Assembly (NCBI GenBank): GCA_038229595.1
Contig: JBBROH010000001.1
Coordinates: 50,633-114,632 of the forward strand
Source: Chloroflexia bacterium
GTDB lineage: Bacteria > Chloroflexota > Chloroflexia > QHBQ01
Length of the DNA: 64,000 nucleotides
Direction of reading: 5' to 3'
Under the pieces are notes generated by a model. It did no database searches. It worked only from the letters and a program-made list of their open reading frames with translations, and had not been told where the DNA came from. The position numbers were made by a program, and so were the translations under genes. Shown piece after piece: positions 34,169-41,413 of this stretch; the stretch's first letter is position 1, and each line of letters starts with the position of its first letter.

Positions 34169-35668
34169 ATGAGACCGCTAACCCCCTCAACTCGTCCTCG
34201 TCTTTTTGCCGCCGAGCAGTACGAACCAGACCTGCTGGCCCGCCGTAAGCGGTTTGGCACCATCGTGCTGGGTTTCTCCATCTTTGTCAGTCTGATCTCC
34301 CTGTTTACTTCGCTCACCTTGTCCAAACCCAACCTGGTCCTCAGTGCTATGGCGGCTCTGGCCGTCGCTGTTGGTGTCATCCTCTTGGTTGCTTTGGGTC
34401 GTGGCTACGTCAATGTGGTGAACTCGATCACTACGGTCTTTGCCACCCTGACGTTGATCAGTAGCGCGCACTTTGCCGATGGCATCTACGGCTCTACGGC
34501 CTCCCTACTGCTGGTTACGCTGGCTTACACCCCCTTCCTTGTTCCTCGCCCAGTCTTTGTAGCCAACCTGATCTCTACCCTGGTTGGCACTACCATCGTC
34601 CTAACTTACGAGTTGAACGGCAACCCACCCGTGCTTGCCCTCGACCCGAAGTCGCTCTCTTTCTCCTACGCCCTATCAACCGTGATATTGGCAGCGATCA
34701 TGTACTACTTCAGTGCGGGTTTGAACAGTGCAGTACGGCGGCTAACGGCGCAGAGTGCCGACCTCAGCCGGGCGAACCAGGAGCTAACCCACCAGCAGCA
34801 GGTCCGCCAGCTTGCCGCCGAGCAGGTCTCTACCGCTGCAAACCATATGGCTGCCTTTACTGGTGAGCAGACAGTGCGGGTGCGCGATGCCGTTAGTGCC
34901 TTCAACCAGACGCAGGCCAGCGCAGAGGAGTTGAGTCGCATCTCCCAGCAGATCGCTGCGGTCGCCGCCCAGGTGCGTGGGGCTGCGGCTAGCACTTTGC
35001 AGCAGTCGCGCAGCACCCAGGAGCAGGTAGCCGACGGCATCGGCGAGATCGCCCTGGTACTCGGCCAGGTCAACGTGATTGCCAGCACCGTCAGCACCCT
35101 GGAGGAGAGTTCGCGGGGTATAGGGCTGGTGGTCACCTCGATCCAGGAGATCGCCGACGAAGTGCGCTTGCTAGCCCTCAACGCTGCCATCGAAGCAGCG
35201 GGGGCGGGCAGCTATGGCCGCCGCTTTGGGGTGATCGCCAATGAGGTCAGCAGCCTGTCCGACTCGGCAGAGCAGCAGACGCGGATAGTCAGCCAGCAGT
35301 TGCAGCAGTTGCAAGCAGCGATCCAGGCGGTGGCTGGGGCTAGCAAGCAGGGTATCGCGCTCGCGGGGCGCAGCGAACACTACCTGCGGAGCATAGGCCA
35401 GGCCGCCGCCCAGATCAACGACCTGAGCGACCAGACCGACCGCCTCGCCGACTCGATCTCGCAGACGACCGGCCAGCAGCGGCTAGCCAGCCAGGAGGTG
35501 GTTGAGCAGATGCGTACTCTCGTGCGGCTAGCCCAGTCGGAGGCAGATAGCGCGACGGTGGGCGCAGAAGCCGCCAGCAACCTGCGCCTGGTTGCCAGCG
35601 GCCTTGCAGACAGCCGGGACTACGCGGCTCCCTCGCTGGTTGGGCCGAAGGTGAGCAAGCCGTCGTAG
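34169..35668 (+). CDS. methyl-accepting chemotaxis protein (multi-TM N-terminus)
   Basis: Core motif EVRLLALNAAIEAAGAGSYGRRFGVIANEVSSLS. Same architecture as the gene at 12074-13528. Confidence 0.85.
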   Translation: MRPLTPSTRPRLFAAEQYEPDLLARRKRFGTIVLGFSIFVSLISLFTSLTLSKPNLVLSAMAALAVAVGVILLVALGRGYVNVVNSITTVFATLTLISSAHFADGIYGSTASLLLVTLAYTPFLVPRPVFVANLISTLVGTTIVLTYELNGNPPVLALDPKSLSFSYALSTVILAAIMYYFSAGLNSAVRRLTAQSADLSRANQELTHQQQVRQLAAEQVSTAANHMAAFTGEQTVRVRDAVSAFNQTQASAEELSRISQQIAAVAAQVRGAAASTLQQSRSTQEQVADGIGEIALVLGQVNVIASTVSTLEESSRGIGLVVTSIQEIADEVRLLALNAAIEAAGAGSYGRRFGVIANEVSSLSDSAEQQTRIVSQQLQQLQAAIQAVAGASKQGIALAGRSEHYLRSIGQAAAQINDLSDQTDRLADSISQTTGQQRLASQEVVEQMRTLVRLAQSEADSATVGAEAASNLRLVASGLADSRDYAAPSLVGPKVSKPS

Positions 35669-36771
35669 GGTGAAGGGTCTACCATCTTTAGCAAGAGCAG
35701 GCTCACTTCGCGGCCCTTCGCCAGCATAAAGAGGATGTTGCGCTCGTCTGCGCTCAAGCCCGTAGCGTTGACCAGCCTTGCATACTGCTTCATGTACTCG
35801 CGCTGGTCGCGCTCTCCCACCTCTGCGCCAGCCAGGGCGGCCAGGATCGCGGCATGGGCGGCGCGTAGCTTAGCATCACGCGCAGCCACCGCCGCTTCGA
35901 TAGCAGCCGCGACTACCTCGGTCTTGAGCCGAAACTCCTCTGGCAGCTTCTTGACCATCTCCATCAAGCTGCCGTCGGCCATCGCCTCGTGGATGCGCCT
36001 GCTGGTCAGGCCGCTAACCAGGCGGTGCAGTTCAAGGTACTCGCTGGTCTTGAGCTTGACCCGCAGGCCGTTGCTATAGCGTAGCACCCAGCCCTCCACC
36101 CCCCGTGAGGCGGCGGCCAATGCAACCAGCGACGGCACAGCCATGCTCTCCGCCTGCGCCACCAGCTTGAAGCCGTACTGCGCGGCGATCAGTTGCAAGC
36201 TAGCGTAATTGTGGTCGTAGCCATCGGCAATCTCTATCGCGCCGATCAGATAGAGGTTCTCCTCGCCCGCGTAATCTACCACGATGCGGTTTTGGGGGTA
36301 GATGATCTCGAATAGCAAGGTGGTGTGCAGCGGGAATTGCGCGCTGGCGAAGTTGCGGCGCACGAACGCGGTTGCCCACTGGGCCTGCGCTGAGTTGAAT
36401 GCACCCCGCGTGGCGATGCGGTAAACCCCCGCGTACCAGAAGCCAATGCCCAGTGAGCCGTCCAGCTTGATCGTCACCTCTGGCGGCTCTGGCGGCAGGT
36501 TGTTCAGCGTGGTCTGCGGCATCTCGCCCAGGTTGAAGAACTTACTGAAAGGACGAGCGGCTAGCTTCGCCGTCGGCCAGTGGAAGATCAGGCCACGGCA
36601 CATCTGCTCGATCTCCGTCCAGCCGTGATCGTAGACTGCCTGCTCGGTGTAGTTGAGGATCAGATACTCACCCTCGACCTGGGCGCGGATGTTGCCCAGG
36701 GCGCGGTAAGCCTCGCGGTTCGCTCCATGCTGGCGCACTGCTTCGGTGATCGTCTCCAATGCGTCAATCAT
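35620..36771 (-). CDS. T4 RnlA (Rnl1)-family RNA ligase
   Basis: Aligns by eye with T4 Rnl1: MCRGLIF, ARPFSKFFNLGE, adenylylation motif IKLDGSL, LFEIIYPQNRIVV, EGWVLRY.NGLRVKLKT.EY. Start at ATG 36771 (GAAGGG RBS), not the 538-aa ORF-track start. Confidence 0.8.
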   Translation of the reverse strand: MIDALETITEAVRQHGANREAYRALGNIRAQVEGEYLILNYTEQAVYDHGWTEIEQMCRGLIFHWPTAKLAARPFSKFFNLGEMPQTTLNNLPPEPPEVTIKLDGSLGIGFWYAGVYRIATRGAFNSAQAQWATAFVRRNFASAQFPLHTTLLFEIIYPQNRIVVDYAGEENLYLIGAIEIADGYDHNYASLQLIAAQYGFKLVAQAESMAVPSLVALAAASRGVEGWVLRYSNGLRVKLKTSEYLELHRLVSGLTSRRIHEAMADGSLMEMVKKLPEEFRLKTEVVAAAIEAAVAARDAKLRAAHAAILAALAGAEVGERDQREYMKQYARLVNATGLSADERNILFMLAKGREVSLLLLKMVDPSPYDGLLTFGPTSEGAA

Positions 36772-36797
36772 CGCTGACCCTTCATGTTTGCCAGAGC

Positions 36798-38546
36798 TTA
36801 GCGGTTCTCGCGCTGCACCGCCCAGCCGAGGCGGGCCGAGCGCAGGCGCAAGCCCAAGCGCGGAGCCACCTGCAACAAGCCGCCTTCGATCCGCCGTAGC
36901 CGCCGCCCACCGAGTAGGCGCGCGGCCTTGCGGTAGAGGCGCAGGCTGGCGGCAGCCCTGATCGCCGCCAGGTAGTCCAGCCCCCACAGCCCCATCCGCC
37001 TTGCCCCCAGCACGCCGAAGGCCAGCAGCAGGATGCGCGGGTAGACGCGCAGGGTGTGCAGCGTCACGCGGGTATAGTCGCCCAGCGAAGTCGTGTCCTG
37101 GAAGAAGCGGCGGCTGAGGTCGGGGCCGAGGTCGGCTAGCACGCGGCAAAAGATGTTCATGATCTGGTTCACCTCGTTCTGCTTGCCCTGGGCTAGCCCC
37201 ACCTGGGTCGGCGACATGAAACGGCTGAAGACCCACATCATGCCCAGGTTCTGCTGGTGCGCCCCGATCCGCCGCAGCGAACCAGCATCTAGCAGGTTGC
37301 GGCTGAGGGCGAGATCGAGCAAACTGGTGATGCGGCCAAGATTGCGAACGTGGCTGCCGAAGCCGCAGAAGGTGAGCGGCGATTGCTGGGCTGCCGCGTC
37401 GCCAATGCTGATGATCCGCTCTGTGGCCCCACTACCCGCCCGCACGCGCAGGCCGTCGCGGTGGCGAGCGGGGATGAAGCCGTAGACGGGCTTGCAGTGC
37501 TGGAAATCTTTGCCAATCCTCTTGTAAGTGGGTAGCAGGCGGAAGTAGTCCTCAAACAGGGCCAGCAGGTCGCACTCGCCACCCTCGTCCAGGTTGGCAT
37601 AGTAGAAGACGTAGGTAGTCATCTCATCTTCGCGGCCAGGGAAGCCCTCCCAGATCAACTGCCGCCCCCCCTGCGCGTCGGCCACACTCACCAGCACGTC
37701 ACCCACTCCCGGATCAACCTCATCTATCGCGTTGCCTTGCACAAAGCCTTGCGCCACCGTGCCAACCGTCGGGCAAACCGCACTGAAGGGCCGCCCGTCG
37801 TTGAGTGCCTGCGCCAGGGGAGAGGTGCTGCCCATGTCATCCACCAGCAGCGCAGCCCTGAAGCGACAAACCGTCGCGCTGTCATCCTCCACTTCCACCA
37901 CAACCCTGCCCACCTTGCCGCCCGCTTGCACGTAGGCGTGGCGGAAGCCATAGCCAGAGCGGATCAGGCTGCCAGTGCCAGACTGCTCGATCTTCTGCAC
38001 GCAGAGGGCCAGCAGTGCGCTGGCATCCAACGCGAGGTCTAGTACGCCAGTCAGCTTGAGGTCTGCCGCTGGCACCCTGATCGTATTGGGGGCGAAGCGG
38101 ATCACGCCCGTATGGTAGCGACGCTGGATGATCGGCTCAAGCTCGGCCCAGGTGAACAGGCCGAGGCCAACCAGCCTGCCCAGTTCAGCCGCGCTGATGT
38201 TCCACTCGCGGTGGGTGCTGCCGATCTCCTTGCGGTCGAAGACCAGCACTTTGCGGCGGTAGCGGGTTGCTAGCAATGCCGCATCCAGCAGACCCAACCC
38301 AGCCCCAGCGTAGATCACCTCAAACTCACCGTCGCTGGCTGGCAGCACGTCCACATAGCTGATCACCGGTGCAGGGTCGTGCTGCACGAAGTAGCGTTGC
38401 CAGGCCCGATTGAGGCCGTAGGCGTGGCCCAGCGCGTCCAGGCCGCCCGGCATGGCGGTGAAGGCAGCTACGGTTAGGGGATACTGGGCGCGTAGTTGCT
38501 CGGCCAGGGCTTCAGCGGTGCTGTGCAGGTTAGCGGTTGCGGTCAT
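36798..38546 (-). CDS. FAD-dependent oxidoreductase, CruA/CruP (lycopene cyclase-like) family
   Basis: Dinucleotide-binding VIYAGAGLGLLDAALLA...VLVFD. IGDAAAQQSPLTFCGFG resembles the CruA/CruP signature as I recall it. Confidence 0.6.
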   Translation of the reverse strand: MTATANLHSTAEALAEQLRAQYPLTVAAFTAMPGGLDALGHAYGLNRAWQRYFVQHDPAPVISYVDVLPASDGEFEVIYAGAGLGLLDAALLATRYRRKVLVFDRKEIGSTHREWNISAAELGRLVGLGLFTWAELEPIIQRRYHTGVIRFAPNTIRVPAADLKLTGVLDLALDASALLALCVQKIEQSGTGSLIRSGYGFRHAYVQAGGKVGRVVVEVEDDSATVCRFRAALLVDDMGSTSPLAQALNDGRPFSAVCPTVGTVAQGFVQGNAIDEVDPGVGDVLVSVADAQGGRQLIWEGFPGREDEMTTYVFYYANLDEGGECDLLALFEDYFRLLPTYKRIGKDFQHCKPVYGFIPARHRDGLRVRAGSGATERIISIGDAAAQQSPLTFCGFGSHVRNLGRITSLLDLALSRNLLDAGSLRRIGAHQQNLGMMWVFSRFMSPTQVGLAQGKQNEVNQIMNIFCRVLADLGPDLSRRFFQDTTSLGDYTRVTLHTLRVYPRILLLAFGVLGARRMGLWGLDYLAAIRAAASLRLYRKAARLLGGRRLRRIEGGLLQVAPRLGLRLRSARLGWAVQRENR

Positions 38547-38648: not shown

Positions 38649-39515
38649 CTACCGCCTGTGCAAGGTCAGCACTGCGATCTCTGGGCGGGAGCGCAGGCGG
38701 TGGGGGATGCCGCTCATGCCGATGCCGCGACTGACATAGAGCGGCAAGCCGTGATGATCGCAGTAGCCGCGCAACAACTCCTCGTGCTTGTGCGGCAGGT
38801 GTGGCGCGCCGAAGAAGGGCAGGATCACCTGGCCGCCATGCGTGTGGCCGCAGAGCATCAGGTCTACGCGCTGCCCAGCGGTGCGCTCCACGAAGTCGGG
38901 GTTGTGGGCCAGCAGCACGCGGCACTGATTGGCGGGCAGGCCGCGTAGGGCGGCAGCTAGGTCGTAGTTGTGCGAACGCAAATCCTCAACCCCAGCGAAG
39001 TGCAGCCGCTCTCCCCCACGCTCCAGGCTGGCATGCTGGTTGCGTAGCACCTGTGCGCCGCCGCTTTGCAGCCCGCGCACGTTGGCCTGCTCGTGGCCGA
39101 AGTAGTCGTGATTGCCGAGGACGGCGAAGATGCCCTCCCTTGCCACCAGACCAGCAAGCAGGGTCGGGAAGCGGTAGCCAGCCCTGCGCGTTACGTAGTC
39201 ACCGAGCAGGCAGATCACATCTGGCTGCTGGGCGTTGGTCATCTCTACCACGCGGTGCAACTGCCGTTCGCCGACCCGCCAGCCGTAATGTATGTCGCTG
39301 ATCACCGCCAGCCGCAGACCGTCGAAGCTGGGGGGCAGGCCAGGTAGGCGGATGGTAGTGTGGGTTACTTCCAGCCAGAAGGGTTCGATGAAGTAGCTGT
39401 AGCCCAACGTGCCGATACCCAACACTGCCGACCCCAGCACCTTCGCCAGCAGCCGCACCTTGCGCCGCCTGAACCGTTGCCGCCCCCAGCCCTCCCGCTC
39501 GTCCGCCACCGTCAC
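38649..39515 (-). CDS. membrane-anchored calcineurin-like metallophosphoesterase (YkuE-like)
   Basis: N-terminal TM segment. Motifs ISDIHYG, LGDYV, GNHD, GHTHGG. Its GTG start overlaps the upstream TGA (GTGA). Confidence 0.85.
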   Translation of the reverse strand: MTVADEREGWGRQRFRRRKVRLLAKVLGSAVLGIGTLGYSYFIEPFWLEVTHTTIRLPGLPPSFDGLRLAVISDIHYGWRVGERQLHRVVEMTNAQQPDVICLLGDYVTRRAGYRFPTLLAGLVAREGIFAVLGNHDYFGHEQANVRGLQSGGAQVLRNQHASLERGGERLHFAGVEDLRSHNYDLAAALRGLPANQCRVLLAHNPDFVERTAGQRVDLMLCGHTHGGQVILPFFGAPHLPHKHEELLRGYCDHHGLPLYVSRGIGMSGIPHRLRSRPEIAVLTLHRR

Positions 39516-41413
39516 CGGCTGCTGACCCCCGCCGCCTTCAATGTCGCCTGCTGAATGGCGAACAACTCTGCCAACCCCTTGTCGGCGAGGTTGAGTAGCT
39601 GATCGAGGGCGGCGCGGTCGAAGGGCTTGCCCTCCGCCGTCCCCTGCACTTCGATGTACTTGCCACTGCCGGTCTGCACCACGTTGAAGTCTACCTCGGC
39701 CCGCGAGTCCTCCTCGTAGGCGAGATCGAGGCGCGCTTCGCCCGCGACGATGCCGACGCTGATGGCGGCCAGCGGCTCAAGCAGGATGCGTTTGCTGCCG
39801 ACGCGGTGCGCCTGCCGCAGCTTGTCTACCGCCAGGGCAAGGGCAACATAGGAGCCAGTAATCGCGGCGGTGCGGGTGCCACCGTCGGCGTTGATCACGT
39901 CGCAGTCCACCGTCAACTGGATGTCGCCGAGGGCGGCCAGGTCGGTGATCCCGCGCAGGCTGCGCCCGATCAGCCGTTGAATCTCTTGGGTGCGCCCGCT
40001 GACCTTGCCTGTACTGGCTTCGCGGCGGTTGCGACCGGGGGTAGCCGAGGGCAACATACTGTACTCCGCCGTCACCCAGCCGCCCTTGCCGACGCGGTGC
40101 GGTGGCAGATCGGTCTCGGCAGTGACGGCGCAGATCACCTGGGTGCGACCAAACTCAACCAGCACCGAAGCGGTAGGGAAGACCTGATAGTTGGTGGTGA
40201 TCTTGATGGGGCGCAGGTCGGTGGCGGCGCGACCATCTGGGCGAGCATTGTTCGGCACGGTTAACTCCAGGGGCGACTGGATTTGCTGGAAGGCACGGCT
40301 CACCCTTGCGGCTGCGTGCAAGGTAAAGGCTACCATGCTGCTGCTGATCGGCGGCTGGTTGGGGTACTCCTCTGGGTAAAAGAGGCTCTCCAACAGCGTC
40401 TCGGCCAGCACAAAAGGCCAGGCAACGGTAAGGGCGGCGGCCAGCAGGTCGCGCTCTATTATACTCAATTTGCACTCGCTCTGATACTCGCTGAGAAAGA
40501 GGTCGAACAGCCTTGCGTTGGCCTGCCGTTCGGGGCGCAACTCTGGCTGACCGCCGCCGCTGAAGACCAGCACGCTGAAGTAGAGTAGAGCCTGGGCCAG
40601 TTCGAGCAGGCGGGGAGCGTAGCGCGAGCTATCCCAGCCCCGCACGGTGGTTACTTCGCCCCGTCGGTTGAAGGTGAGATTGTAGCCGTGATAGTTGCCG
40701 TGGATGTGTAGCAGGCGCAGGTGGGGGGCGGCAGCAGCGATGCGGCGGTCGGCCAGGCTGTGGGCATCCGCGATCTGGTCGAGGGCAGTATCCGCCCGCT
40801 GACGGTCGGCGGGGTCGCGCAGGGCAGCTACGTAGTGACTGAGGCGATTCAGCCGCGCTCGCCCCTGCCCCAGCATTGACCACTGCTCCGGCCAGTAGTT
40901 GGTCTCGCCTGCGTACTGTTCGCTGATGCGGTGTAGCTTGCCGAGGGTACGGGCTGCACTGGCTACCTGCGTTGGGCTGTCGTAGACGAAGTTCACCCCT
41001 TCCACCCACGCTTGCAGTTCGTAGCTCTGGCCCGCCACCGCCAGGGTGGTCGCGCCGTCGGGCATGGCAATCAGGTTGGGGACGGGCAGCCCGTAGCGAC
41101 AGACGTGCAGCATGATCGCTTGCTGGTGGCGATAATCCTGGGGGCTGGCGGCTGGGTCGTGGTGGTGCAACAGGTAGACGCGCCCCCACGCATCGCTGAG
41201 GCGCAGGGCTAGCCGCCCACCATGCAGATTCAGGTGGCGGTCGAGGCGCAGCCCAGGGAGGCCATAGCTGGCGGCGGTTGCCGCAACCAAGGGGGCAAAC
41301 CGCTGGCGCACCTCCCTGGCTTCGAGCGCGTGATTGCGCGGTGGCACGACGAGGGGTGGAGTGAGCGAGCGGTCTGCGTCCGGCGCAGCCACCTCATGCG
41401 GTTGTGAAAGCAT
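39512..41413 (-). CDS. rph: fusion protein: N-terminal APH/ChoK-like kinase-fold domain plus C-terminal ribonuclease PH
   Basis: C-terminal ~240 aa: RPDGRAATDLRPI...GWVTAEYSMLP..T..R...E...GKVSGRTQEIQRLIGRSLR...DCDVINADGGTRTAAITG, which is RNase PH. The N-terminal ~390 aa have a kinase-fold catalytic loop reading HGNYHGYN instead of HGDxxxxN. Confidence 0.85.
   Translation of the reverse strand: MLSQPHEVAAPDADRSLTPPLVVPPRNHALEAREVRQRFAPLVAATAASYGLPGLRLDRHLNLHGGRLALRLSDAWGRVYLLHHHDPAASPQDYRHQQAIMLHVCRYGLPVPNLIAMPDGATTLAVAGQSYELQAWVEGVNFVYDSPTQVASAARTLGKLHRISEQYAGETNYWPEQWSMLGQGRARLNRLSHYVAALRDPADRQRADTALDQIADAHSLADRRIAAAAPHLRLLHIHGNYHGYNLTFNRRGEVTTVRGWDSSRYAPRLLELAQALLYFSVLVFSGGGQPELRPERQANARLFDLFLSEYQSECKLSIIERDLLAAALTVAWPFVLAETLLESLFYPEEYPNQPPISSSMVAFTLHAAARVSRAFQQIQSPLELTVPNNARPDGRAATDLRPIKITTNYQVFPTASVLVEFGRTQVICAVTAETDLPPHRVGKGGWVTAEYSMLPSATPGRNRREASTGKVSGRTQEIQRLIGRSLRGITDLAALGDIQLTVDCDVINADGGTRTAAITGSYVALALAVDKLRQAHRVGSKRILLEPLAAISVGIVAGEARLDLAYEEDSRAEVDFNVVQTGSGKYIEVQGTAEGKPFDRAALDQLLNLADKGLAELFAIQQATLKAAGVSSR

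What the first reader, a model, noticed from the sequence alone, without database searches (positions are those of the whole stretch)
35620..36771. Chromosomal homolog of phage T4 RNA ligase 1 (Rnl1)
The 383-aa protein aligns along its length with T4 RnlA motifs. CRGLIF matches CRGIMF. ARPFSKFFNLGE matches SRPMEKFFNLNE. The lysine adenylylation motif KLDGSL matches KEDGSL. YPQNRIVV matches APTNRIVL. EGWVL..NGLRVKLKT.EY matches EGYVA..DGSHFKIKSDWY. T4 Rnl1 reseals broken tRNA anticodon loops. Bacterial Rnl1-type ligases are much less commonly described than Rnl2, RtcB or LigT-type enzymes. The gene is the last of five co-directional genes and overlaps the convergent MCP gene by 49 nt.
Basis: partly seen in the sequence, partly recalled or inferred. 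Interest (0 to 1): 0.6.

Follow-up and report, generated by a model that had tools for sequence, protein, structure and literature searches.

The report
Stand-alone T4-type RNA ligase gene
This Chloroflexota bacterium carries an intact chromosomal relative of phage T4 RNA ligase 1 that stands alone, without the end-repair partner gene phages put beside it; it is a new member of a widespread, already annotated but biochemically untested bacterial branch of a known enzyme family.

Summary
The gene lies on the minus strand (35620-36771) and encodes a 383-aa protein. It passes Pfam RNA_lig_T4_1 (71 bits, cut-off 28.3). It matches T4 Rnl1 in the PDB by sequence (single sequence 3.6e-11, family profile 5.9e-47) and by fold (Foldseek 1e-18). 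Every catalytic residue I checked in T4 Rnl1 is kept, including the adenylylated lysine (K102 in KLDGS); only K119 is changed, to Arg.

The helical C-domain defines Rnl1 against other ligase clades. It is a diverged Rnl1-type domain. Profile-profile score is 33.3, against at most 19.2 in 200 shuffles, and its best fold matches are phage Rnl1-like ligases. The T4 crystal structure itself was not retrieved.

At least 494 species-representative genomes carry relatives, as do 1629 phage records. In phages, Bacteroidota and Actinomycetota a T4-type Pnkp gene usually abuts the ligase. The window's gene belongs to a well-supported, mostly Chloroflexota clade that never shows this (0 of 23 well-flanked loci).

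The five-gene "cluster" is conserved only within the genus, so it is not an RNA-repair operon. The gene is under purifying selection (dN/dS 0.29). Its bacterial family lacks RtcB (0/5) but always has this ligase (5/5).

Verdict: an ordinary new member of a known kind.

The parts
35620..36771 (-). Rnl1-family ATP-dependent RNA ligase gene, 383 aa plus stop
   Evidence: Translation. PF09511 at 71 bits. PDB T4 Rnl1 at 3.6e-11, and 5.9e-47 with the family profile. AF2 pLDDT 94, Foldseek top hit 2c5u at E 1e-18.
36007..36771 (-). Adenylyltransferase domain (residues 1-255): Rnl1-type N-terminal sub-module plus nucleotidyltransferase core
   Evidence: Aligned to T4 Rnl1 residues 32-254. dN/dS 0.17 against the sister-species ortholog.
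36583..36600 (-). CRGLIF; R59 corresponds to T4 R54 (ATP gamma-phosphate contact)
   Evidence: R59 and G60 are invariant in 50 homologues. Role of R54 from PMC6379707.
36523..36546 (-). SKFFNLGE; K77 and F78 correspond to T4 K75 and F76
   Evidence: Invariant K77 and F78.
36454..36468 (-). Motif I KLDGS; K102 is the predicted AMP-accepting lysine (T4 K99)
   Evidence: K102, D104, G105 and S106 are invariant. The KxDG form is typical of Rnl1, not the KxHG of Rnl2 (PMC1807946).
36295..36318 (-). Motif III LLFEIIYP; E155 corresponds to T4 E159
36082..36096 (-). Motif IV EGWVL; E226 and G227 correspond to T4 E227 and G228
36037..36063 (-). Motif V RVKLKTSEY; K239, K241 and Y245 correspond to T4 K240, K242 and Y246
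35644..36006 (-). All-helical C-terminal domain (residues 256-376), a diverged Rnl1-type C-domain
   Evidence: Seven helices, pLDDT 92.7 when folded alone. hhalign against T4-like RnlA C-domains: E 2.3e-5, score 33.3, shuffles at most 19.2. Top BFVD hits are phage Rnl1-like ligases, TM 0.46-0.66. No PDB hit when searched alone. dN/dS 0.58.
35620..35668 (.). 49-nt overlap of the 3' ends of the ligase gene (-) and the MCP gene (+). It encodes the ligase tail (about residues 368-383); residues 377-383 have pLDDT below 50.
   Evidence: The same overlap is seen in sister-species locus L008.
36778..36783 (-). GAAGGG, a likely ribosome-binding site 6 nt before the ATG. It sits inside the 26-nt spacer after the upstream 582-aa gene.
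   Evidence: Sequence read directly. No promoter- or terminator-like site in the spacer. Co-transcription is inferred, not shown.

Best explanation
The gene encodes an active ATP-dependent RNA ligase of the T4 Rnl1 family. It is kept as a stand-alone chromosomal gene.

Inferred mechanism, the classic three steps of this superfamily:
1. Lys102 (KLDGS) attacks ATP to give ligase-(lysyl)-AMP plus pyrophosphate. R59 and K77 hold the gamma-phosphate and F78 the adenine. E155, E226, K239 and K241 complete the active site.
2. AMP passes to a 5'-phosphate RNA end.
3. A 3'-OH attacks the activated end and seals the break.

The helical C-domain is a diverged version of the T4 domain that steers Rnl1 to broken stem-loops such as tRNA anticodon loops. 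The likeliest substrates are therefore 3'-OH/5'-PO4 breaks in structured RNA, with tRNA first.

No end-healing gene is linked. Ends must come ready-made from metal-dependent RNases, or be healed in trans. Candidates encoded elsewhere in this genome are a ligase-less Pnkp-type kinase-phosphatase (contig C44) and the Hen1-Pnkp operon (contig C25).

Shown here: family membership, an intact active site, purifying selection, and the absence of a linked partner. Inferred: enzyme activity, substrate, and healing partner.
For: Family membership and fold:
- PF09511 at 71 bits against a cut-off of 28.3.
- T4 Rnl1 is the best PDB match by sequence and by fold. AF2 pLDDT is 94.1; Foldseek gives 2c5u at E 1e-18, ahead of Trl1-LIG and Rnl3.

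Active site:
- T4 R54, K75, F76/77, K99, D101, G102, E159, E227, G228, K240, K242 and Y246 are all conserved. K119 is replaced by Arg.
- The same residues are invariant in 50 homologues.

C-domain homology to T4-like RnlA:
- hhalign E 2.3e-5. Score 33.3 against 10.4 +/- 2.2 in 200 column shuffles.
- The best BFVD fold hits are phage Rnl1-like ligases.

Selection and origin:
- dN/dS is 0.29 against the sister species, and 0.17 in the catalytic domain.
- GC content equals the window mean.
- The gene is present in 5/5 genomes of the bacterial family, with a tree consistent with vertical descent.

Stand-alone status:
- 0 of 23 well-flanked loci of its clade have a Pnkp neighbour, against 15 of 28 in the other clades.
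- The genome has no T4-type Pnkp.

Possible healing in trans:
- Pnkp-type kinase-metallophosphatase genes lie on C44 and C25.
- Ends healed by Clostridium thermocellum Pnkp are readily sealed by T4 Rnl1 in vitro (PMC1920235).
Against: - No biochemical or expression data exist.
- It scores only 52 bits on the T4 RnlA equivalog model, cut-off 242.
- The C-domain alone finds neither T4 Rnl1 nor anything else in the PDB, by profile or by Foldseek.
- The C-domain evolves faster (dN/dS 0.58), so tRNA specificity may not be conserved.
- The ligase-less Pnkp paralog is common in this order whether or not the ligase is present, and rare in other genomes with a solo ligase: about 3 of 32. A specific partnership is therefore unsupported.
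- Only two PIN-domain RNase genes are found in the genome.
Confidence: 0.8

Rival explanations
1. The ligase is the sealing component of a five-gene RNA end-healing and sealing operon: kinase-fold/RNase PH fusion, metallophosphoesterase, flavoprotein-like 582-aa protein, ligase.
For: The genes are co-directional and tightly spaced. The phosphoesterase start overlaps the stop of the fusion gene, and the ligase starts 26 nt after the 582-aa gene. A kinase fold, a phosphoesterase, a 3' exonuclease and a ligase are the activities an RNA repair set would need. One distant ligase locus (L018) also has a Metallophos gene directly upstream.
Against: - Synteny exists only in the same genus (L008). In three genomes of the sister genus, and in two further genomes of the order, the ligase has entirely different neighbours such as FtsH and MtrA-like genes.
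- The APH+RNase PH fusion is genus-specific. All other relatives have a plain RNase PH of about 250 aa.
- The phosphoesterase is YaeI/LpxG-like (161 bits) and appears to carry an N-terminal hydrophobic, probably membrane, segment, read by eye from the sequence.
- It is only 21% identical to the L018 Metallophos.
- Clustering of neighbours across 86 loci finds no recurrent partner in this clade.
Confidence: 0.06
2. In this bacterial family the Rnl1-type ligase has taken over the cellular role that RtcB plays in related Chloroflexia. It would be a general RNA/tRNA repair or stress ligase, working on ends healed by the ligase-less Pnkp paralog.
For: - Family f1: 5/5 genomes have the ligase and 0/5 have RtcB.
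- Rest of the order: 2/36 have the ligase and 26/36 have RtcB.
- All 7 ligase-bearing genomes of the order carry the kinase-phosphatase paralog of about 450 aa, against about 10 of 34 others.
- Pnkp-healed ends are substrates for T4 Rnl1 (PMC1920235).
Against: - The pattern amounts to one or two evolutionary events, not independent replicates.
- The genomes are MAGs, 83-88% complete.
- This genome also has a complete Hen1-Pnkp system with its own ligase domain, so the Rnl1 ligase is not the only RNA ligase.
- Outside this order the kinase-phosphatase paralog rarely accompanies solo ligases.
Confidence: 0.2
3. It is a decaying or functionless remnant of a phage tRNA-repair cassette, with the ligase left behind after loss of Pnkp.
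For: - The closest relatives with a Pnkp neighbour are phage or prophage genes: contig L014 (43% identity, with RlaP, Pnkp and portal) and Bacillus phage Skywalker, both inside the same larger clade.
- 1629 phage records carry relatives.
- dN/dS is higher than for housekeeping neighbours: 0.29 against 0.05-0.11.
Against: - No phage genes lie nearby; the neighbours are housekeeping genes.
- GC content matches the window.
- The frame is intact and all catalytic residues are kept.
- The gene is retained in all five genomes of the family, and in dozens of Chloroflexota lineages that form a coherent clade.
Confidence: 0.05
4. It is an active ligase, but its diverged C-domain directs it to a substrate other than broken tRNA, such as other structured RNAs, RNA circularisation or nicked duplexes.
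For: - The C-domain alone matches nothing in the PDB.
- It shares only about 16% identity with T4-like C-domains in the profile alignment.
- It evolves faster than the catalytic domain.
- In T4 the C-domain is what confers tRNA specificity (stated in PMC6379707).
Against: - The C-domains are still detectably homologous and collinear.
- Phage members of the same clade sit beside Pnkp and RlaP, the classical tRNA-repair context.
Confidence: 0.2

Closest known systems
Bacteriophage T4 RNA ligase 1 (Rnl1, gp63, rnlA; PDB 2c5u, 5tt6, 9do4)
   Same: - Same two-domain plan: an N-terminal adenylyltransferase with the Rnl1-specific N-terminal sub-module, followed by an all-helical C-domain.
- Same KxDG motif I and the same catalytic residues.
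- Best sequence and fold match in the PDB.
- The C-domains are homologous at profile level.
   Different: - Only about 19-28% identity.
- Below the T4 RnlA equivalog cut-off.
- K119 is Arg throughout the bacterial family.
- The C-domain is strongly diverged.
- Encoded in a bacterial chromosome with no phage genes around it and no Pnkp anywhere in the genome.
- A tail-fibre attachment role has no meaning here.
Phage and prophage Rnl1 + Pnkp cassettes of Gram-positive hosts (Arthrobacter phage Seahorse gp81/gp82, Bacillus phage Skywalker gp122/gp121, a Prescottella prophage), and Bacteroidota chromosomal Rnl1-Pnkp(-RlaP-WYL-TROVE) loci
   Same: - Same ligase sub-family at 34-43% identity.
- Skywalker and the phage-like contig L014 fall inside the same well-supported clade.
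   Different: Those ligases are followed directly by a T4-type kinase/HAD-phosphatase gene: 25 of 86 loci overall, and 15 of 28 well-flanked loci outside the window's clade. The window's clade has none.
Fungal/plant tRNA ligase Trl1 ligase domain (Rnl6; PDB 6n67, 6n0v)
   Same: Shares the Rnl1-like adenylyltransferase domain, including the N-terminal sub-module. It is the second-best fold match, E 7e-11.
   Different: - The family profile aligns only to the NTase part of Trl1, profile positions 51-238.
- Motif I is KLDG, not KxNG.
- There are no fused kinase or CPD domains.
- No Tpt1 is found in the genome to remove a 2'-phosphate.
Bacterial Pnkp-Hen1 RNA repair system (Clostridium thermocellum Pnkp, Rnl4 ligase domain)
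   Same: It is also a bacterial ATP-dependent RNA-sealing activity. This genome carries a canonical Hen1-Pnkp operon elsewhere. Pnkp-healed tRNA ends can be sealed by T4 Rnl1 (PMC1920235).
   Different: The window protein has no PF16542 (PNKP_ligase) match, no fused kinase or phosphatase, and no Hen1 neighbour.

Membership tests
Rnl1 family of ATP-dependent RNA ligases (T4 Rnl1 type) | Match to the curated family profile (Pfam PF09511 RNA_lig_T4_1) above its gathering score | tested here: met
   71.1 bits against a cut-off of 28.3, E 1.6e-19, profile positions 2-227 of 227.
Rnl1 family of ATP-dependent RNA ligases (T4 Rnl1 type) | Covalent nucleotidyltransferase motifs with the lysine nucleophile in KxDG, plus the Rnl1-specific N-terminal sub-module residues (T4 R54, K75, F76/77) | tested here: met
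   The mapping to T4 is R59, K77, F78/79, K102, D104, G105, E155, E226, G227, K239, K241 and Y245. K119 becomes R122. These residues are invariant in 50 homologues.
Rnl1 family of ATP-dependent RNA ligases (T4 Rnl1 type) | Rnl1-type all-helical C-terminal domain, the feature that separates the Rnl1 to Rnl6 clades (PMC6379707, PMC1807946): homology at sequence-profile level | tested here: met
   - The full-length family profile aligns to T4 Rnl1 residues 32-339, with collinear DE[FY], RKx[FY]A and LF motifs.
- hhalign restricted to the C-domain, against six T4-like RnlA C-domains: probability 75.8%, E 2.3e-5, 83 columns, score 33.3. In 200 column shuffles the mean was 10.4 and the maximum 19.2; the reversed control scored 9.6.
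- Caveat: a C-domain-only profile searched against the whole PDB did not retrieve T4 Rnl1 at E <= 10.
Rnl1 family of ATP-dependent RNA ligases (T4 Rnl1 type) | Rnl1-type C-terminal domain: similarity at the level of 3D structure | tested here: inconclusive
   - The isolated C-domain model (pLDDT 92.7) has no PDB match; the best E is 2.1 and T4 Rnl1 is not listed.
- In BFVD, 5 of the top 18 hits are phage Rnl1-like ligases: CN77 (TM 0.66, rmsd 2.4 A), phage G (0.57), PspYZU05 RnlA (0.53), CcrBL9 (0.46) and phiN3 (0.46). All have E >= 0.026.
Rnl1 family of ATP-dependent RNA ligases (T4 Rnl1 type) | Equivalog of T4 RnlA (NCBIfam TIGR02308 trusted cut-off) | tested here: not met
   52 bits against a cut-off of 242. 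It is a family member, not an ortholog-level equivalent of the T4 enzyme.
Rnl1 family of ATP-dependent RNA ligases (T4 Rnl1 type) | ATP-dependent self-adenylylation and sealing of 3'-OH/5'-PO4 RNA ends, with a preference for single-stranded ends or stem-loops (tRNA) | not testable with these tools
   This needs purified protein. No characterised bacterial chromosomal member turned up in the literature searches. That is absence in the held library only.
T4-type two-gene tRNA repair pathway (Pnkp + Rnl1) | A polynucleotide kinase/HAD-phosphatase (T4 Pnkp type) encoded beside the ligase, or at least in the same genome | tested here: not met
   - No Pnkp-like neighbour in the window or in any close relative.
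- PF25109 finds nothing in the genome, but this control was uninformative.
- tblastn with 25 Pnkp proteins finds only P-loop-level hits. These turned out to be bacterial Pnkp-type proteins with a metallophosphatase, not the HAD type.
Rnl6 (Trl1-type tRNA ligase) | Trl1-type C-domain, KxNG motif I, and a pathway partner Tpt1 for 2'-phosphate removal | tested here: not met
   The profile aligns only to the NTase part of Trl1. Motif I is KLDG. No PF01885 match in the genome.
Rnl4 (bacterial Pnkp ligase domain) and Rnl2 (T4 Rnl2 type) | Match to PF16542 PNKP_ligase, or to PF09414 RNA_ligase with KxHG motif I | tested here: not met
   Only PF09511 is reported for the protein at E <= 0.01. The genome's single PF09414 hit is an ATP-dependent DNA ligase on contig C4.

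The most novel reading that the evidence does not exclude
A large, mostly Chloroflexota clade of Rnl1-type ligases has been domesticated as stand-alone cellular enzymes. In this bacterial family (5/5 genomes with the ligase, 0/5 with RtcB) it would replace RtcB as the general RNA-break sealing enzyme. It would act either directly on 3'-OH/5'-PO4 cuts, or on ends healed in trans by the orphan ligase-less Pnkp paralog (P-loop kinase plus metallophosphatase). That would make a split, non-orthologous counterpart of the phage T4 Pnkp + Rnl1 pathway operating in uninfected cells.
Probability: 0.2. Interest if true: 0.5.

Novelty: new member of a known kind. Interest (0 to 1): 0.3.

Why it matters
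Rnl1-type ligases are textbook phage enzymes and laboratory reagents, but no cellular bacterial member appears to have been characterised. This locus is a clean example of a coherent, Pnkp-less chromosomal clade with an intact active site and a diverged specificity domain. Expressing it would answer two questions. Can bacterial cells use Rnl1 chemistry without a dedicated healing partner? What RNA does the diverged C-domain recognise? It could also give a new RNA-ligation reagent. None of this overturns current understanding: the family, its mechanism and its genomic variability are already known.

Tried and rejected
1. **Five-gene RNA repair operon: rejected.** Synteny is limited to the genus, the RNase PH fusion is genus-specific, and the phosphoesterase is YaeI-like.

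2. **Recurrent Metallophos partner: rejected.** The L018 neighbour is unrelated, at 21% identity.

3. **"Only RNA ligase in the genome": rejected.** I first inferred this from the absence of RtcB and Rnl2. A canonical Hen1-Pnkp operon with a ligase domain then turned up on contig C25.

4. **Specific partnership with the ligase-less Pnkp paralog: not supported.**
   - All 7 ligase-bearing genomes of the order have it. So do about 10 of 34 genomes without the ligase.
   - Only about 3 of 32 solo-ligase genomes elsewhere have it.

5. **VapC/PIN toxin reversal: little support.** Only two PIN genes are in the genome.

6. **Recent horizontal transfer or prophage: rejected.** GC content matches the window, the neighbours are housekeeping genes, and the pattern within the family looks vertical.

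7. **C-domain searched alone against the PDB by profile and by Foldseek: nothing**.

8. **Steps that failed for technical reasons:**
   - The search for related loci with the 50-sequence alignment failed for lack of a conserved stretch, and was redone with 16 sequences.
   - Burroughs & Aravind 2016 and Wang et al. 2007 are not in the held library.
Full report
**1. Observation**

The + strand of 35620-36771 is closed by many stops. The reverse strand gives one 383-aa protein. The stop-to-stop frame extends to a GTG at 37236, but three things support the ATG at 36771:
- homologues are 350-390 aa long;
- there is a 94%-identical 383-aa protein;
- a GAAGGG hexamer lies 6 nt upstream.

The T4 counterparts are present in T4 RnlA taken from a phage record. 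The 49-nt 3' overlap with the convergent methyl-accepting chemotaxis gene (34169-35668, PF00015) is correct, and so is the five-gene co-directional run. The overlap codes for the ligase tail, whose last seven residues are predicted disordered. The same overlap is present in the sister species.

**2. What the protein is**

- **Pfam.** It assigns only PF09511 (RNA_lig_T4_1): 71 bits against a cut-off of 28.3.
- **Sequence against PDB.** T4 Rnl1 is the only significant match to the single sequence (3.6e-11). With a profile of 50 homologues the match rises to 5.9e-47 and spans T4 residues 32-339. Fungal Trl1, archaeal Rnl3 and Naegleria Rnl5 match only the nucleotidyltransferase core, at 1e-8 or worse.
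- **Fold.** An AlphaFold model built on the family alignment is confident (pLDDT 94.1, pTM 0.85). Its best PDB fold matches are the three T4 Rnl1 entries (E 1e-18 to 5e-17). Trl1-LIG and Rnl3 follow.
- **Residues.** All T4 catalytic residues I checked map on: R54, K75, F76/77, K99, D101, G102, E159, E227, G228, K240, K242 and Y246. K119 is Arg here and throughout the bacterial family. PMC6379707 describes R54 and K75 as gamma-phosphate contacts that are essential in vitro, and F76 as an adenine contact.
- **Motif I.** It is the KxDG form that PMC1807946 gives for T4 Rnl1, not the KxHG of Rnl2.

**3. The C-terminal domain**

RNA ligase clades are defined by the domain appended to the nucleotidyltransferase core (PMC6379707, PMC1807946). 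I therefore tested the C-domain (residues 252-383) on its own.

- *Negative results.* A C-domain-only profile does not retrieve T4 Rnl1 from the PDB. A confident stand-alone model (pLDDT 92.7, seven helices) has no PDB fold match.
- *Positive results.* A profile-profile comparison with the C-domains of six T4-like RnlA proteins gives 83 collinear columns, E 2.3e-5 and a score of 33.3. In 200 column-shuffled controls the mean was 10.4 +/- 2.2 and the maximum 19.2. The reversed alignment scored 9.6. Among predicted viral structures, 5 of the top 18 matches are phage Rnl1-like ligases, with TM 0.46-0.66. One is annotated "RNA ligase A", the T4 RnlA name. None has E below 0.026.

I conclude that the C-domain is a strongly diverged homologue of the Rnl1 C-domain. 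The protein is a true Rnl1-family member, but not an equivalog of T4 RnlA (TIGR02308: 52 bits against 242).

**4. Distribution**

- The protein search found 112 relatives. Several are already named "RNA ligase" or "T4 RnlA family RNA ligase".
They span Chloroflexota, Acidobacteriota, Bacteroidota, Actinomycetota, Cyanobacteriota, Planctomycetota, Nitrospirota, Myxococcota, Bacillota, Deinococcota and several archaea.
- 1629 phage records carry a relative. The closest is Arthrobacter phage Seahorse at 40% identity.

**5. Gene neighbourhoods**

I clustered ORFs from 86 loci. The only common neighbour is a T4-type Pnkp (P-loop kinase plus HAD phosphatase), present in 25 loci and usually directly downstream. 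RlaP-like nucleotidyltransferases (7 loci) follow, as do two clusters that by eye resemble WYL-domain regulators (8 loci) and TROVE/Ro proteins (4 loci). This is the RNA-repair context described by Burroughs and Aravind, which I know only through PMC7824862 and the RlaP preprint. Phage examples confirm it: Seahorse gp81/gp82, and Skywalker gp122/gp121.

In a maximum-likelihood tree:
- The window's protein sits in a 15-member clade (SH-aLRT 100) of Chloroflexia, Ktedonobacteria, Herpetosiphonaceae and one Acidobacteriota genome. The clade also holds one phage-like contig that does carry Pnkp and RlaP.
- That clade lies inside a 45-member clade (SH-aLRT 97) in which only the two phage members have Pnkp.
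- Counting only loci with at least 2.5 kb on both sides, 0 of 23 in this clade have a Pnkp neighbour, against 15 of 28 elsewhere.

**6. The window's own context**

All neighbours are conserved, at 87-98% identity, only in the second species of the genus. In three genomes of the sister genus, and in two further genomes of the order, the ligase sits among unrelated genes such as FtsH and an MtrA-like gene.
- The kinase-fold/RNase PH fusion exists only in this genus. All other relatives have a plain RNase PH of about 250 aa.
- The metallophosphoesterase is YaeI/LpxG-like and appears, by eye, to have an N-terminal hydrophobic (probably membrane) segment.
- The 582-aa gene has no Pfam or PDB match.

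The five genes are therefore a lineage-specific juxtaposition, not a repair operon. The 26-nt spacer has no promoter- or terminator-like site, so co-transcription with the 582-aa gene is plausible but unproven.

**7. Is it maintained?**

Against the sister-species ortholog, dN/dS is 0.29. It is 0.17 for the catalytic domain and 0.58 for the C-domain. Housekeeping neighbours give 0.05-0.11, and the MCP gene 0.23. GC content (62.2%) equals the window mean. The gene is present in all five genomes of the bacterial family, with a tree consistent with vertical descent. It occurs in only 2 of 36 other genomes sampled from the order and class.

**8. RNA-repair inventory of the genome**

The assembly is 87% complete.
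- *Absent:* RtcB, Tpt1 and T4-type Pnkp. The single PF09414 hit is an ATP-dependent DNA ligase.
- *Present:* a ThpR/LigT 2H phosphoesterase.
- *Present:* a canonical Hen1-Pnkp operon on contig C25. Hen1 scores 718 bits on TIGR04074. Pnkp scores 1426 bits on TIGR04075 and has a PF16542 ligase domain.
- *Present:* a ligase-less Pnkp paralog on contig C44, with a P-loop kinase plus metallophosphatase, 464 aa.

RtcB is absent from all five genomes of the family but present in 26 of the 36 other relatives. All seven ligase-bearing genomes of the order have the kinase-phosphatase paralog, but so do about 10 of 34 without the ligase. Among 32 other solo-ligase genomes only about 3 have it; about ten more have full-length Pnkp. 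Healing in trans by a Pnkp-type enzyme is biochemically plausible, since tRNA ends healed by Clostridium Pnkp are readily sealed by T4 Rnl1 (PMC1920235). A dedicated partnership is not supported.

**9. Conclusion**

The finding is correct and its interpretation is supported. The gene is a stand-alone, selectively maintained Rnl1-family RNA ligase with an intact active site and a diverged specificity domain. It belongs to a large Pnkp-less chromosomal clade centred on Chloroflexota. That makes it a new member of a known, already annotated kind.

The modestly interesting open points are what RNA it seals, how the ends are prepared, and whether it substitutes for RtcB in this lineage. Earlier notes of this scan on orphan Rnl1 genes in other phyla reach the same kind of conclusion. 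I treat them as parallel observations, not as evidence.

Noticed in passing
window 39512-41413 (-): A 633-aa fusion of an APH/choline-kinase-fold domain (residues 78-281) to a complete RNase PH (TIGR01966, 316 bits). The fusion exists only in the two genomes of this genus. All other relatives have a plain RNase PH of about 250 aa.
   Followed up: partly
own genome, contig C25:1399-5399 (locus L118:1399-5399): A canonical bacterial Hen1-Pnkp RNA repair operon. Hen1 is 486 aa (TIGR04074, 718 bits). Pnkp is 847 aa with kinase, metallophosphatase and PF16542 ligase domains (TIGR04075, 1426 bits).
   Followed up: partly
own genome, contig C44:14907-16301 (locus L119:1908-3302): A ligase-less Pnkp paralog: P-loop kinase plus calcineurin-type phosphatase, 464 aa, matching positions 3-420 of the 851-position bacterial Pnkp model. 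It stands alone in its neighbourhood. It occurs as a 440-470-aa ORF in 5/5 genomes of the family and about 11 other genomes of the order. It is an orphan end-healing enzyme whose sealing partner is unknown.
   Followed up: partly
relatives G005, G007, G009, G013, G017, G019, G020, G021, G027, G029, G034, G037: In many related Chloroflexia the RtcB match is split. Profile positions 1-50 and about 49-426 lie 0.5-2 kb apart within one open frame of 600-900 aa. This looks like an intein inserted near the N-terminus of RtcB.
   Followed up: no
window 36798-38546 (-): A 582-aa protein directly upstream of the ligase has no Pfam, NCBIfam or PDB sequence match, yet it is 96% conserved in the sister species (dN/dS 0.11). 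Its N-terminus has a GxGxxG-like dinucleotide-binding motif.
   Followed up: partly
L014:1-10185 (Logan contig, SRR33230221): A phage-like contig whose Rnl1 ligase is 43% identical to the window's protein. It carries the ligase, RlaP and Pnkp in a row. It also encodes an 899-aa protein combining a 2H phosphoesterase domain with a weak portal-protein match.
   Followed up: no
L032-L035 (Micrarchaeota MAGs), L053 (Altiarchaeales), L098 (Methanoperedens): Rnl1-family ligases at 38-47% identity to the window's protein occur in DPANN and other archaea. The four Micrarchaeota sequences form a tight clade inside the mostly bacterial Pnkp-less clade.
   Followed up: no
window 38649-39515 (-): A YaeI/LpxG-like metallophosphoesterase that appears to have an N-terminal hydrophobic (membrane) segment. 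Its GTG start overlaps the stop of the RNase PH fusion gene by 4 nt.
   Followed up: partly
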